From Candidatus Poribacteria bacterium (GTDB lineage: Bacteria > Poribacteria > WGA-4E > WGA-3G), in assembly GCA_009845545.1 (NCBI GenBank), contig VXZK01000018.1:1-46986 (forward strand): 46,986 bases of DNA. Direction: 5' to 3'. Below the pieces are notes generated by a model. The model was given only the letters and a program-made list of their open reading frames with translations, was not told the DNA's origin and searched no databases. Both the position numbers and the translations under genes were made by a program. Shown one piece after another: positions 15,467-18,776 of this stretch (positions within the stretch are counted from its first letter, which is position 1; every line of letters starts with the position of its first letter).

Positions 15467-16260
15467 TCAGTTATTCTCCTCAAGCGAGATGTGGAACATG
15501 CCTTGATCGCGGGTTCCAACGTAAAGTCGATCGTTGCTGGTAACGAAGGAGTGAATTTCGCTGGGGACCTCTGAGGAAAGCGGTTTCCATTTGTTGTGAG
15601 CATCTAAGCGGTAGGCACCGCTATCGCCGACACGGTAGATTGTAGTGCTGTCTGCAGTGAATCTGTTTATGACGGTGGGTATTGCGGTTTCATTGCTGAT
15701 GATCCGCCAGTGTTCTCCAGTTTGTGAGATCAAAACCCCTTTGTCGGTTGCGATACAAATCGTTGAACCTGCGAAGGTAATCTCCTTGAAATACACAATG
15801 GAGATCGGCAGCGTTGACGTGATGTCTTTCCAACTGTCTCCGCCATCAACGGATTGAAACAATTGAGCATTCGGCTTATTGGCGTAGCAGGTTTTAGCAT
15901 CACGGGGTTTAAACACTTTTCCATTTGGCTTACTGGCGTATAAAGCCTTACCCTTAAAGAAGTGAAGCAATTTTCCATTCGACTTACCGGCGTAAACGGT
16001 TTTACCTGAAACAGCCAAAGCAGATCCCGAATCAATACCGACTAATCCTGTGTCTATCCATTCGGGATTGCCGAGTTTCCATTTGAAAAGCCGCCCCCCG
16101 TATTTAGCGTAAAATGTCCCGTCACCGACAGCAAAGTCTCCAATTTCCGTGCGTTTTTTTCTATATAGACGCAACGCATGTGATGCGGAAGGGTCATCAT
16201 TTTTAAAAGCGGGAACACCGTGTATTGGGATAAGTTCATTACCTGCAGTGGATGTGTGAA

Positions 16261-16290
16261 TTGACAAACACGGTAAAAATGCGGTATAAT
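16261..16290 (+). promoter_or_regulatory. Consensus sigma70 promoter at the left end of the insertion
   Basis: TTGACA (16261-16266), 18-bp spacer, TATAAT (16285-16290), pointing into the element. Confidence 0.7.
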
Positions 16291-16292
16291 TA

Positions 16293-16706
16293 GAGTATCC
16301 ATTAGTGGGAGCCAATGCTATCTTTACGAACCTTCGTGGAGTGGCTCCCCGTCCAAATAGCATAGAGGATTTTAGTGGTTTAGTGGAAACTCCGATTTAG
16401 ATACAGATATACCTAAAATGGTGTATATCACCTAAACACAGATTAAAGCACTTTACGCTTTCGCGACACATGTCAATTGGGCAGTCGCGTATCAGGGAAT
16501 TCCACAACTAAAAACTTTCCCTGTAGTTGGGTCTGTGGTGCGCCCCGCGGTTGCTTGCATCAACCGCGTCCCTTCGGTTAACAGGTCACCCTCAGGGGAC
16601 TTATGCCGTTGGAGTTCCTATAAGGAACAAAACGCTGCCAGTATGCCTTGTGGGAGGCTGGTCTTCCAAAAGAAGCCCACGCATTTATGCGTCGGGAGTG
16701 CATCAC
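16293..16706 (+). ncRNA. Candidate large structured RNA; 3' ~170 nt resembles a TnpB omega/reRNA scaffold
   Basis: More than 10 helices read by eye, many with G-U pairs on the + strand, and two pseudoknots. The terminal 9 nt (16698-16706) pair with 16535-16543. Confidence 0.6.
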
Positions 16707-17147
16707 AAATACTCGGTTTGCCCTCCTGAACCGAAATGACATAGAGGAGATTATCGGCAATTGTTAACCTTATGTTATTATAAAAATCGGTATCTAATTC
16801 GGGTGTGTGCTTCTGAGCATTGAAGCGAACACTTTCCCAAGTTTCACCGCCATCACTTGACTGGACAAGGTCTCCCCCAATCTGCTGAGTGGAAAACCTT
16901 TTTTTTTGTGTTTCAGGGGTCGATTTTGGGAACAATCCAGTGGATTCCGAGACGATGATATCAGGTCCCGTTCCAACATAGAGGTGGTTTCTGTCGACGG
17001 TCAAAGCGTAAACAGCACCGGATGCGTCGGTGAGCAATCGTTGCCAGTTCCTTGAACTGAAGCGATAGAGCCCTTGGTTTGTGCCAGCGAATAGGGTGTC
17101 TCCTATTGCAGTGCCTGTATAAATCCGTTTCCCTGCTAATCCGTTTA

Positions 17148-17260
17148 TAGTAAAGCACGAAAATAAGTTGACACTCCACGATAACGTTACCCACTCGTAG
17201 GGGCTGGGTTACCCAGCCCCTACGGTCAACCGCGCGTCTAAATAATTATGGGCTTTACTA
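17148..17260. mobile_element. 113-bp MITE with TA target duplication and central REP palindrome
   Basis: TA at 17146-47 and 17261-62. TIR TAGTAAAGC/GCTTTACTA, imperfect out to ~27 bp. Central CGTAGGGGCTGGGT-T-ACCCAGCCCCTACG (17196-17224). Excising 115 bp restores the host frame. Confidence 0.85.
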
Positions 17261-17573
17261 TAAAGGTGTCCAGTGCTGACCGACATCAGTCGATCGAAAA
17301 ATCCCCTTCTCTTGAAGGGCAAGATACAGCGTTACAGGTGCTTTCGGATCGTGTTTTTGGATTGCCGTTGTGACGATGAGTCCATTTGCGGTCCCTTTCG
17401 GACGCGTTCCAAGGGTGTTCCACGTTTCACCACCATCTTCTGAGGCGAGTGCCTCATCAACGGAGACAGTATAGAGAGTGCCTTGGTGCTCTGCCATAGG
17501 TACTCGGTACTGTCCAGTGGGGATGTCAGCATTAATAAGCGCCCATGTTGCATCGGGGGTCAATTTATCTACT

Positions 17574-18776
17574 CTACAACCGATCAACTGTGTATGCTTC
17601 TAACAACGCTTCGTCCAAGTCTACACCGAACCCCGATGCATCGTTGAGAGTGAAAAACCCATCGTGAGGCACAGGTCGTAAACGGCGATAGAGTTCGTTT
17701 TCAACGCCATCGCGGGAGGGACCGAAGGTCTCTGCCATACACGGCATCGGGAGACATGCTGTGAGATGTAAGCCCCACGGTGTTCCCGCTTGATGCAACC
17801 ATGTTGGGATATTGAGTTCAGCGGCTTCGTTGGCAATCCGCAGACATTCCGTGAAACCACCCGCCCAACTAATGTCGGGTTGAATCATATCCGCTGCTTT
17901 CCAACGTAACAACTCACGAAACCCGTATCGCGTGAATTCATGTTCACCAGAAACGATCCAAGTCGATTGGACATTTTGGACGAGTTGTGCCATGCCTGCA
18001 TAGTCGTCAAGTGGGATAGGTTCCTCAATCCATTTGAGACGGACATTAGAGGCTTCCTCGGCAAAACGGAGCGTGTAGTCTACATTCCAACGGAGATAGA
18101 TGTCTGCCATCAGTTCCACCTCTGTCCCGATAGCATCCCGCGCAGCGTGTATCATCTCAACGTTTTCTGTGAATCCATCTTCACCTTCGGCGAGTCCATT
18201 GCGGAGCGGTAGCTTGCAAGCGGCGAATCCGTTCTCTGCGTAATAACCGACATCTGCACCTGTTGCATAAGCCGGAATTTTAAGGCACGGCGTCTCTGTT
18301 ACGAGACCGTAAACAGGCGCGTCTACAATTTTTCCACACAAATCAACGAGTGCGAGTTCTATACCGCTCAATGCGTAAATCACCAAACCGCGCCGTCCGT
18401 AAATTGAGGTGATATGATACAGATGTTCCCATATCTCCTCAACATCAAGGGGATCGCGTCCGATAACGAAGTGCTGAAGGTGTTTTTCAATAACCAACGC
18501 GCCAGCAAGTCCGCCACCGCCGAGGCCGTACCCTTTCAAGCCCTTATCGGTCGTTATTTCTACGATTAACGCCCCTGCTTGCGTTGCGAAGGGACCACGC
18601 CAGTCAACGTGCGCTGTCTGGGTCGCAGGTTTCTGCCACTGTCCTTTGGTAAATCCTAAACCGGGCATTGCGCGAGGGTTCAGATTAACGTGCCATGTCC
18701 GGATTCCAGTAACAGTATGTTGGGTTTTTGCCCGTTCTTTCCACATAGCCGTGAGATTATTTTCATTGGCGTGCAT
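17574..18776 (-). CDS. Mandelate racemase/enolase superfamily acid-sugar dehydratase (L-rhamnonate dehydratase-like)
   Basis: ALSGIELALVDLCGK, KIPAYATG, metal ligands in LMADIY, WIEEP and SGEHEFTRYGF, and QPDISWAGG. Confidence 0.85.
   Translation of the reverse strand: MHANENNLTAMWKERAKTQHTVTGIRTWHVNLNPRAMPGLGFTKGQWQKPATQTAHVDWRGPFATQAGALIVEITTDKGLKGYGLGGGGLAGALVIEKHLQHFVIGRDPLDVEEIWEHLYHITSIYGRRGLVIYALSGIELALVDLCGKIVDAPVYGLVTETPCLKIPAYATGADVGYYAENGFAACKLPLRNGLAEGEDGFTENVEMIHAARDAIGTEVELMADIYLRWNVDYTLRFAEEASNVRLKWIEEPIPLDDYAGMAQLVQNVQSTWIVSGEHEFTRYGFRELLRWKAADMIQPDISWAGGFTECLRIANEAAELNIPTWLHQAGTPWGLHLTACLPMPCMAETFGPSRDGVENELYRRLRPVPHDGFFTLNDASGFGVDLDEALLEAYTVDRL

What the first reader, a model, noticed from the sequence alone, without database searches (positions are those of the whole stretch)
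16261..16706. Promoter-driven, ORF-less IS605-like cassette encoding a large pseudoknotted RNA (orphan omega-RNA candidate)
Seen: a 441-446-bp insert in a beta-propeller gene starts with a consensus promoter (TTGACA-N18-TATAAT) and ends in an IS200/IS605-type right end (CCCACGCA-TTTA-TGCGTCGGG...TCAC). Almost all of the sequence between is paired. The 3' domain (16535-16706) is closed by GTGGTGCGC/GTGCATCAC and contains CGCGGTTG/CAACCGCG, GTCCCTT/AGGGGAC, GTTCCT/AGGAAC, GCCAGT/GCTGGT and CTTC/GAAG. Established: TnpB guide RNAs derive from the IS right end and take their guide from the flanking DNA. Inference: this is a stand-alone mobile guide-RNA gene that uses TnpA and TnpB (or a derived effector) in trans. 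Its guide would be AAATACTCGGTTTGCCCTCC, which is antisense to the host gene.
Basis: partly seen in the sequence, partly recalled or inferred. Interest (0 to 1): 0.88.

Follow-up and report, generated by a model that had tools for sequence, protein, structure and literature searches.

The report
Protein-less IS605 transposon carrying guide RNA
This is a 446-base, protein-less relative of IS200/IS605 transposons that keeps its own promoter and a large, evolutionarily conserved folded RNA resembling the guide RNA of TnpB nucleases; elements of this general kind have already been described.

Summary
Window 16261-16706 is an exact 446-bp insertion in a beta-propeller (BNR-like) gene. Empty sites in three related genomes and in three RNA-library assemblies join 16260 directly to 16707. 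The insert begins with a 12/12 sigma-70 promoter and ends in an IS200/IS605-type right end.

It belongs to a family of ORF-less 520-550-bp elements found in at least three genera. Their left and right ends match an autonomous tnpA+tnpB IS605-type element in relatives. The 3' domain (16483-16706) is supported by covariation: 24 of 60 pairs show compensatory changes. It is homologous to the RNA region that overlaps the 3' end of that tnpB. The 5' leader is a covarying pseudoknot shared with many tnpB 5'UTRs.

My best reading is a non-autonomous PATE-like element that expresses an omega-RNA for a TnpB supplied in trans.

Three caveats apply:
- This copy lacks the left-end hairpin, so it is probably immobile.
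- No cognate tnpA or tnpB was found in this draft genome.
- RNA binding and guiding are untested.

PATEs that encode omega-RNAs are already in print (Meers et al. 2023). I therefore rate this a new member of a known kind, of moderate interest.

The parts
16257..16260 (+). TGAA in the host flank, immediately 5' of the insert. It is the likely TnpA target and TnpB TAM motif.
   Evidence: TGAA precedes the left end in all 11 ORF-less copies inspected, in 4 of 4 copies, and in 3 of 3 autonomous tnpA+tnpB elements. Empty-site comparison shows these bases are host sequence; the three relatives read CGAA there. Its role as a TAM is inferred.
16261..16290 (+). Sigma-70-type promoter: -35 TTGACA at 16261-16266, 18-nt spacer, -10 TATAAT at 16285-16290.
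   Evidence: 12/12 consensus match. Both hexamers are kept in 9 distinct copies while the spacers diverge. The same promoter followed by TAGAGTATC precedes tnpB genes in relatives.
16291..16395 (+). 5' leader with an H-type pseudoknot: P2 16307-16314/16342-16349, P3 hairpin 16322-16328/16335-16341, pseudoknot helix 16315-16321/16357-16363.
   Evidence: Alignment A2 has 20 sequences (8 ORF-less and 12 tnpB 5'UTRs). 95.2% of cells pair versus 66.9% in shuffles, and 20 of 22 pairs show compensatory changes, 0/500 shuffles as high. Model R2 scores this copy at 73 bits.
16406..16429 (+). Middle hairpin M1 (GATATAC / GTATATC).
   Evidence: RNAalifold on A3 (8 sequences) predicts it as an 8-pair helix (its outermost pair is A-A in the window copy); 13 pairs are predicted in all, 9 with both-side changes. 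The rest of the middle region aligns poorly between subfamilies.
16483..16706 (+). 3' domain, an omega-RNA-like scaffold. It contains hairpin 16493-16499/16517-16523, closing long-range helix 16535-16543/16698-16706, internal stems, and the right-end hairpin 16677-16684/16689-16697.
   Evidence: A1: 60 pairs, 97.7% paired versus 85.0% in shuffles, 24 pairs compensatory, slid controls 38-44%. A4 (27 distinct sequences): 96.7% versus 82.1%, 30 pairs compensatory. Model R1 hits the 3' ends of tnpB frames at 49-63 bits.
16707..16726 (+). Right flank that would serve as the guide segment if the transcript runs through the right end.
   Evidence: It lies directly 3' of the conserved ...GCATCAC end, after which all copies diverge. 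The 16-nt version has no other match with 1 mismatch or fewer in the draft genome. Guide use is inferred.
15467..17599 (-). Interrupted host gene, a BNR/Ycf48-like beta-propeller that is now a pseudogene.
   Evidence: The frames break at the insert and again near 17208/17258. Pfam matches are weak: PSII_BNR, BNR, Sortilin-Vps10. A second repeat lies at 17144-17264, and ~342 nt are missing relative to relatives near 16880.

Best explanation
This is a non-autonomous, protein-less derivative of an IS200/IS605-family (IS605-type) transposon, a PATE/MITE-like element.

Layout of full-length family members (520-550 bp):
- host TGAA;
- left-end guide and hairpin;
- an A-rich tract and a consensus promoter;
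- a pseudoknotted leader;
- one or two middle hairpins;
- a multi-stem scaffold of about 220 nt, closed by a helix whose 3' strand is the last 9 nt of the element;
- the flanking DNA.

Proposed mechanism. The promoter drives one transcript of about 410 nt that runs through the right end into the flank. The 3' domain acts as an omega-RNA scaffold for a TnpB made elsewhere, by the cognate tnpA+tnpB element. The first ~16-20 flank nucleotides act as the guide. The TnpB-RNA complex would cut the empty site (TGAA followed by the flank sequence) after TnpA excision, so that recombination restores the element. TnpA supplied in trans would move it.

The window copy sits 3' of TGAA like the others but has lost the left end. 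It can probably no longer be excised, yet it still carries an intact promoter and RNA.

Shown: the precise insertion, the family, the shared ends, RNA-structure covariation, homology to the tnpB 3'/RNA region, and the presence of related sequence in RNA libraries.

Inferred: the transcript ends, TnpB binding, guide use, TGAA as the TAM, and how the left end was lost.
For: Precise insertion. It is exactly 446 bp with no duplication.

Shared ends.
- The right end ...GAAGCCCAC-loop-GGG..ATCAC is shared with IS copies downstream of tnpB in the same genome.
- The left end of the ORF-less copies matches that of the autonomous tnpA+tnpB elements. It is nearly identical within genome G029.

Distribution.
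- BLAST finds full copies in 6 of 65 genus genomes: 4 in G014, 2 in G030, 1 in G029, plus more divergent copies.
- Model R1 finds the long form in a second genus and a second family.

No coding signal.
- tblastn with the TnpB finds nothing real in 7 elements.
- The TnpB-tail reading frame carries stops in 6 of 7 copies.

Covariation.

Link to tnpB.
- R1 hits at 49-63 bits lie at the 3' end of long open frames in at least 13 of 21 loci inspected. Four of these have an IS200-type tnpA upstream.
- Pfam confirms Y1_Tnp and OrfB_IS605 plus Cas12f1-like_TNB for L073.
- Nucleotide-level homology is visible.

Architecture. The guide-adjacent nucleotides pair with the 5' end of the scaffold. This mirrors the ISDra2 omega-RNA pseudoknot, and there too the TnpB C-terminal tail overlaps the RNA (passages of Nakagawa et al. 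2023, PMC10097598).

Expression hint. RNA-library contigs 92-95% identical to the element exist. Their word depth against the host-gene contig of the same run is 622 versus 17, 66 versus 22, and 35 versus 47.

Literature. PATEs with omega-RNAs used in trans are described in passages of PMC10055086.
Against: - The window copy lacks the left-end hairpin.
- It is single-copy in its own genome.
- R1 finds no tnpB-borne relative of the scaffold in this 94%-complete draft. The best hit is 10.9 bits at C290.
- The closest TnpBs in this genome are 42-48% identical to the cognate type and have different right-end termini.
- G014 is a complete genome with 4 copies. It has no cognate TnpA with this query, only 6 distant Y1_Tnp matches, and only 46-50% TnpB relatives with short open frames.
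- The long form has two stems that the tnpB-borne form lacks. Cross-use by that TnpB is therefore not guaranteed.
- No Rfam family matches.
- RNA contigs cannot show strand, ends or true abundance, and DNA may be present in the libraries.
- E-values from R1 and R2 are rough. A4 was fitted to the model's structure.
Confidence: 0.65

Rival explanations
1. The conserved RNA serves a purpose other than guiding the cognate TnpB. It might be a decoy or regulator of TnpB or TnpA. It might be a partner of one of the abundant tnpB-only IS proteins whose leader it shares. It might be an RNA that acts on its own.
For: - The ORF-less lineage keeps a ~190-nt 5' part (leader pseudoknot and middle hairpins) that a minimal omega-RNA scaffold does not need.
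- It has two extra stems relative to the tnpB-borne form.
- It persists in G014 without a cognate tnpA or tnpB.
- The leader is shared with tnpB-only IS copies, which reach the 32-per-genome scoring cap.
Against: - The scaffold ends exactly at the transposon boundary and carries the guide-adjacent closing helix typical of omega-RNAs.
- Its ends are those of the autonomous element.
- No evidence points to any other partner.
- The leader may simply be an inherited mRNA leader.
Confidence: 0.15
2. The window copy is an inert fossil. The family's structure was selected elsewhere or in the past, and here the sequence is merely decaying inside a dead gene.
For: - It has no left end.
- It is single-copy.
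- No cognate enzymes are found in this genome.
- The host gene has two further lesions.
Against: - The promoter is a perfect 12/12 match.
- The RNA still forms the consensus helices.
- It scores 236 bits against R1, although it was a training sequence.
- The insertion is younger than the split from close relatives that keep the empty site.
- The draft genome has 401 contigs, in which IS copies are often unassembled.
Confidence: 0.15
3. The conserved pairing serves the single-stranded DNA transposition intermediate, as TnpA substrate structure, and not an RNA.
For: - IS200/IS605 elements move as single-stranded DNA, and TnpA recognises DNA hairpins (passages of PMC10055086).
- The structured strand is the same top strand.
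Against: - Only the two subterminal hairpins are known to be needed (established knowledge of IS608).
- Here about 90 pairs across the whole body are kept, together with a conserved promoter reading the same strand.
- Several invariant G-U pairs occur in the closing helix.
- Related sequence is present in RNA libraries.
Confidence: 0.05

Closest known systems
PATE-like (palindrome-associated transposable element) ORF-less IS200/IS605 derivatives, as noted in Geobacillus stearothermophilus by Meers et al. 2023 (PMC10055086; passages read)
   Same: It has no protein gene. Its left and right ends are shared with autonomous or tnpB-bearing IS copies. It inserts without duplication next to a short motif. 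It encodes an omega-RNA that would need TnpB in trans.
   Different: It comes from a different lineage, recovered from a sponge metagenome according to the run listing. The RNA is about 410 nt long. It carries a conserved internal consensus promoter, a pseudoknotted leader and two extra scaffold stems. The family spans several genera. This copy lacks the left end. I could not see that paper's Extended Data or supplements, so its PATEs may share more of these features than I can tell.
TnpB omega-RNA (reRNA) of IS605-family elements, for example ISDra2 (Nakagawa et al. 2023, PMC10097598; passages read)
   Same: It lies at the right end. In the tnpB-borne relatives it overlaps the dispensable C-terminal tail of tnpB. 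It is a multi-stem scaffold whose guide-adjacent 3' nucleotides pair with its 5' part. The guide would come from the flank.
   Different: No tnpB is present in cis. The scaffold is about 220 nt against 116 nt for ISDra2. The putative TAM is TGAA, not TTGAT. No protein binding or cleavage has been shown.
The autonomous tnpA+tnpB IS605-type element of related genomes (loci L073, L088, L089, L091)
   Same: Both sit beside TGAA. The left-end hairpin region matches. Both end in ...ATCAC. The 3' RNA domain is homologous.
   Different: That element carries tnpA (Y1_Tnp) and a ~430-aa tnpB. It has a short leader without the pseudoknot. Its scaffold is about 181-185 nt and lacks stems 7-9.
IscB omega-RNA / HEARO RNA
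   Same: It is also a large structured guide RNA of the IS200/IS605 superfamily.
   Different: No Rfam hit was obtained at E up to 10. In IscB systems the guide is at the 5' end of the RNA (recalled from memory). Here the promoter is internal and the RNA reads out through the right end.

Membership tests
IS200/IS605-family non-autonomous element (PATE/MITE-like) | Insertion without target duplication and without terminal inverted repeats, 3' of a short conserved motif | tested here: met
   Empty sites join 16260 to 16707 exactly. TGAA precedes the window copy and every other copy inspected.
IS200/IS605-family non-autonomous element (PATE/MITE-like) | Subterminal hairpins at both the left and right ends | tested here: inconclusive
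   The right-end hairpin is present at 16677-16697. The left-end hairpin is absent from the window copy but present in the 11 other copies and in 4 of 4.
IS200/IS605-family non-autonomous element (PATE/MITE-like) | Ends shared with an element that encodes a Y1 (IS200-type) TnpA | tested here: met
   The left end matches tnpA+tnpB elements in G008, G083 and G029. TnpA identity is confirmed by Pfam. No such cognate element was found in the window's own genome.
IS200/IS605-family non-autonomous element (PATE/MITE-like) | No protein-coding gene | tested here: met
   tblastn with the TnpB finds no real match in 7 elements. The TnpB-tail frame has stops in 6 of 7 copies. Length differences between copies are not multiples of three.
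IS200/IS605-family non-autonomous element (PATE/MITE-like) | Multiple copies with different flanks | tested here: met
   Relatives carry several copies: G014 has 4, G030 has 6, G105 has 5 and G111 has 3-4, with diverging flanks. The window's own genome has only 1 copy.
TnpB omega-RNA | Scaffold at the right end that stops at the transposon boundary and is homologous to the RNA overlapping the 3' end of a tnpB | tested here: met
   R1 hits at 49-63 bits lie at the 3' ends of tnpB frames. Nucleotide-level homology is shown. The combined alignment keeps 96.7% of cells paired.
TnpB omega-RNA | Transcribed, with a 3' guide read from the flank | tested here: inconclusive
   Contigs of three RNA libraries cover relatives of the element up to 16706/16707. 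They show no strand and no ends, and they stop where the copies diverge.
TnpB omega-RNA | Bound by TnpB and directs TAM-dependent DNA cleavage | not testable with these tools
   This needs biochemistry or a plasmid-interference assay.
Described Rfam RNA families (including HEARO and IS605-orfB motifs; names recalled from memory) | Match to a curated covariance model | tested here: not met
   The only gathering-score hits in the window are two tRNAs. At E up to 10 on 16100-16900 there are only two chance hits, SNORD100 and STnc310, both on the other strand.

The most novel reading that the evidence does not exclude
The ORF-less elements may form an independent 'guide-RNA-only' transposon lineage under selection of its own. 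It has diversified across genera with compensatory changes, gained extra stems and kept a pseudoknotted leader. It survives in a complete genome that lacks the cognate tnpA and tnpB. This would imply one of two things. Either the RNA hijacks non-cognate TnpB proteins from the abundant tnpB-only IS that share its leader, acting as a hyperparasite of IS605 elements. Or the long RNA has a TnpB-independent activity.
Probability: 0.2. Interest if true: 0.7.

Novelty: new member of a known kind. Interest (0 to 1): 0.42.

Why it matters
The finding provides a natural, well-sampled family of transposons that consist only of a promoter and a guide-RNA-like gene. The family has enough divergence to read the RNA structure from covariation. 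Autonomous partners are identifiable in some genomes and missing in others.

That makes three questions directly testable. How modular are TnpA, TnpB and omega-RNA in nature? Can guide RNAs parasitise nucleases made by other elements? What does the widespread pseudoknotted tnpB leader, which has no Rfam match, actually do?

For genome annotation, the finding explains a gene disruption in a sponge-metagenome genome and flags several abundant small repeats there.

Tried and rejected
Rfam. Gathering thresholds on the whole window and E up to 10 on 16100-16900 gave no relevant family.

Own-genome searches. BLAST-type searches with words of 7 and nhmmer on the draft genome found only the window copy, plus short right-end hairpin matches. 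A 19-nt multi-copy match (insert positions 152-170) turned out to be a chance overlap with an unrelated 113-bp MITE.

Partial BLAST hits. I first suspected the partial hits in G030, G032 and G009 were tnpB-bearing parents. They have no tnpB, and all but the G009 hit (L057, only a 3' fragment) proved to be divergent full ORF-less copies.

Decayed coding sequence. Rejected.

Own-genome tnpB loci as carriers of the same scaffold. Rejected: only hairpin-sized hits, best full-length score 10.9 bits.

Off-target sites for the putative guide. A first script with 4 mismatches was uselessly permissive and its output was cut. The rerun with 2 mismatches or fewer found only the native flank, plus six 2-mismatch sites not preceded by TGAA.

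Middle region (16395-16483). It aligns poorly between subfamilies, and only hairpin M1 is supported.

RNA-library contigs. They cannot give transcript ends. The contig starts at 16409 (X11) and about 16273 (X12) are not taken as processing or start sites. DNA run X4 added nothing on polymorphism.

Literature. Four searches found the PATE/omega-RNA concept but no description of this family or of the leader motif. I made no search under the organism's taxon name, which I do not know. PMC12558985 holds none of the terms PATE, orphan, MITE, standalone or 'without tnpB'. Supplements and extended data of Meers et al. 2023, which list their PATE-like elements, could not be seen.

No structure prediction, complex prediction or protein-database search was run, because none would change the reading.

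Full report
**What is there.**
- It begins with TTGACA, an 18-nt spacer and TATAAT, a 12/12 consensus match.
- It ends with a hairpin (16677-16684 paired with 16689-16697) followed by AGTGCATCAC.
- It interrupts a minus-strand gene with weak BNR/Ycf48-like propeller matches.

The limits of the insert are exact. In G025, G011 and G020 the orthologous gene is uninterrupted, and 16260 abuts 16707. Contigs of about 1300 nt in three RNA libraries from a different study also skip precisely these 446 bases. No host bases are lost and none are duplicated. The last four host bases before the insert are TGAA.

**It belongs to a family.**
- The draft genome (401 contigs, 93.9% complete) holds one copy.
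- BLAST finds full or near-full copies in 6 of 65 genomes of the genus (first seen). There is one at 91% identity in G029, two at 74% in G030 and four at about 70% in G014. All have different flanks.
- Hits that looked partial are mostly more divergent full copies: G030 x4 and one in G032.
- A covariance model of the 3' domain (R1) also finds the long form in a second genus (G111, G126, G102, G095, G105) and once in another family (G133).
- Four of four such loci inspected have the same layout and no long open frame inside the element.

Full-length members are 520-550 bp. They extend about 90-95 nt further left than the window copy. Their order is host TGAA, then GGGAATT..AACAAT, a hairpin of the CCCAAG-loop-CTTGGG type, an A-rich tract, and then the promoter. 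All end in GGGAGTGCATCAC, after which the flanks diverge. The one exception is L041, whose right end is degenerate.

**Relation to autonomous elements.** Weaker full-length R1 hits (49-63 bits, 181-185 nt) occur in many genomes of the genus. In total, 31 of 65 genomes have some R1 hit at E up to 0.001.
- In at least 13 of 21 loci inspected, the hit lies at the 3' end of a long open frame with a common C-terminal tail. Four of these loci show an IS200-type tnpA just upstream.
- For L073, Pfam confirms Y1_Tnp and OrfB_IS605 plus Cas12f1-like_TNB.
- The DNA that encodes ...KYQG..PVVG.VV.P.. in that TnpB aligns at nucleotide level with window ~16488-16545.
- The left end of these tnpA+tnpB elements, including the preceding TGAA, matches that of the ORF-less copies. 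It is nearly identical within G029.

The ORF-less elements therefore share ends and the right-end RNA region with an autonomous IS605-type element. Their promoter and leader differ from it, however. They match the 5'UTRs of tnpB-only IS copies instead, so the family looks modular.

**The RNA structure is under selection.**
- The whole predicted transcript folds better than shuffled sequence: z = -3.69, 0 of 100 shuffles as good.
- 3' domain, 9 copies (8 distinct). RNAalifold gives 60 pairs, and 24 show compensatory changes. 97.7% of cells pair, against 85.0% in column shuffles (0/500 as high) and 38-44% when partners are slid.
- 3' domain, 27 distinct sequences including the tnpB-borne forms. 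96.7% of cells pair against 82.1% in shuffles, and 30 pairs are compensatory. The closing helix gains one G-C/A-U switch. This alignment was fitted to the model, which favours the structure.
GTCCCTT/AGGGGAC is not.
- The long form has stems 7-9 that the tnpB-borne form lacks.
- 5' leader. It forms an H-type pseudoknot (16307-16363). Across 8 ORF-less copies and 12 tnpB 5'UTRs, 95.2% of cells pair against 66.9% in shuffles. 20 of 22 pairs are compensatory, and all 7 pseudoknot pairs are.
- Middle region. One hairpin (16406-16429) also covaries, but the rest aligns poorly.

**It is not coding.** tblastn with the TnpB finds nothing real in 7 elements. The TnpB-tail frame has stops in 6 of 7 copies.

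**Comparison with known biology.** In ISDra2, the omega-RNA derives from the tnpB 3' end plus the right end. Its guide-adjacent nucleotides pair with the 5' part of a 116-nt scaffold. The overlapped TnpB C-terminal tail is dispensable (passages of PMC10097598). Here the last 9 nt of the element pair with 16535-16543, and the tnpB-borne relatives overlap a C-terminal tail in the same way. Meers et al. describe PATE-like ORF-less elements and state that PATEs often encode omega-RNAs that need TnpB in trans (passages of PMC10055086). No Rfam family matches.

**Evidence for expression.** Three RNA libraries contain contigs 92-95% identical to the element:
- X11: 16409-16706, word depth 622, against 17 for the host-gene contig of the same run.
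- X12: 16276-16707, depth 66 against 22.
- X13: 16340-16707, depth 35 against 47.

Contigs show neither strand nor ends. They stop where the copies diverge, DNA may be present in the libraries, and repeats inflate depth. I count this as a hint only.

**What weakens the reading for this copy.**
- It lacks the left-end guide and hairpin, although one breakpoint coincides with the expected TnpA cleavage site after TGAA. I have no shown mechanism for this loss (note).
- No scaffold-matching tnpB is found in this genome. The best R1 hit is 10.9 bits.
- The nearest TnpBs (C290 and C158) are 42-48% identical to the cognate type and end differently.
- G014 is a complete genome with four copies. It lacks the cognate TnpA with this query. 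It has only distant Y1_Tnp matches and only short-framed TnpB relatives at 46-50% identity.
- The putative 16-nt guide matches nothing else in the genome at 1 mismatch or fewer. That fits the canonical model, in which the target is the empty site only.

**Verdict.** It is a new member of a known kind. The wide, structure-preserving spread of the ORF-less lineage and the abundant, uncatalogued leader pseudoknot give it moderate interest.

Noticed in passing
window 16291-16395; also own-genome C35, C378, C181, C259, C274, C245, C384, C376, C200, C231, C394: The pseudoknotted leader is a very abundant motif at the 5'UTR of tnpB-only IS copies. Model R2 finds 12 hits in this genome. It hits 44 of 44 sampled genomes of the genus and 64 of 121 of the phylum sample, reaching the 32-per-genome scoring cap. 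No Rfam family matched the window copy. The 3' strand of its outer helix is tandemly duplicated just before the tnpB start codon.
   Followed up: partly
window 17144-17264: A second small repeat of about 120 bp, with terminal inverted repeats of the TTATAGTAAAGC type, interrupts the same host gene. At least 7 copies at 99-100% identity lie elsewhere in this genome, and related copies occur in other genomes of the genus.
   Followed up: partly
window ~16880: The host propeller gene lacks about 342-361 nt that G025, G009, G011 and G002 carry between the two aligned blocks. This is probably a lost repeat unit. With the two insertions, the gene has three lesions.
   Followed up: no
own genome C371, C258, C195, C119, C78, C1, C177: An unrelated 113-bp MITE with GAGGGTTTTCG...CGAAAACCCTC termini is present in at least 7 near-identical copies. 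It shares a 19-nt stretch with the insert by chance.
   Followed up: partly
own genome C259:4454-5108 (locus L003/L108): A tnpB-only IS copy keeps the leader, the zinc-ribbon end of tnpB and the right end, but has only a 127-codon frame. It looks like an intermediate internal-deletion form.
   Followed up: no
G014:C1 (loci L021, L034, L041, L047): This complete genome has four ORF-less copies. Three are near-identical with different flanks, and one has a degenerate right end. No cognate TnpA was found with the L073 query.
   Followed up: partly
L054 and L055 (G030:C2): Two ORF-less copies have identical flanks on both sides (upstream and downstream), which suggests a segmental duplication on that contig and not two separate insertions.
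   Followed up: no
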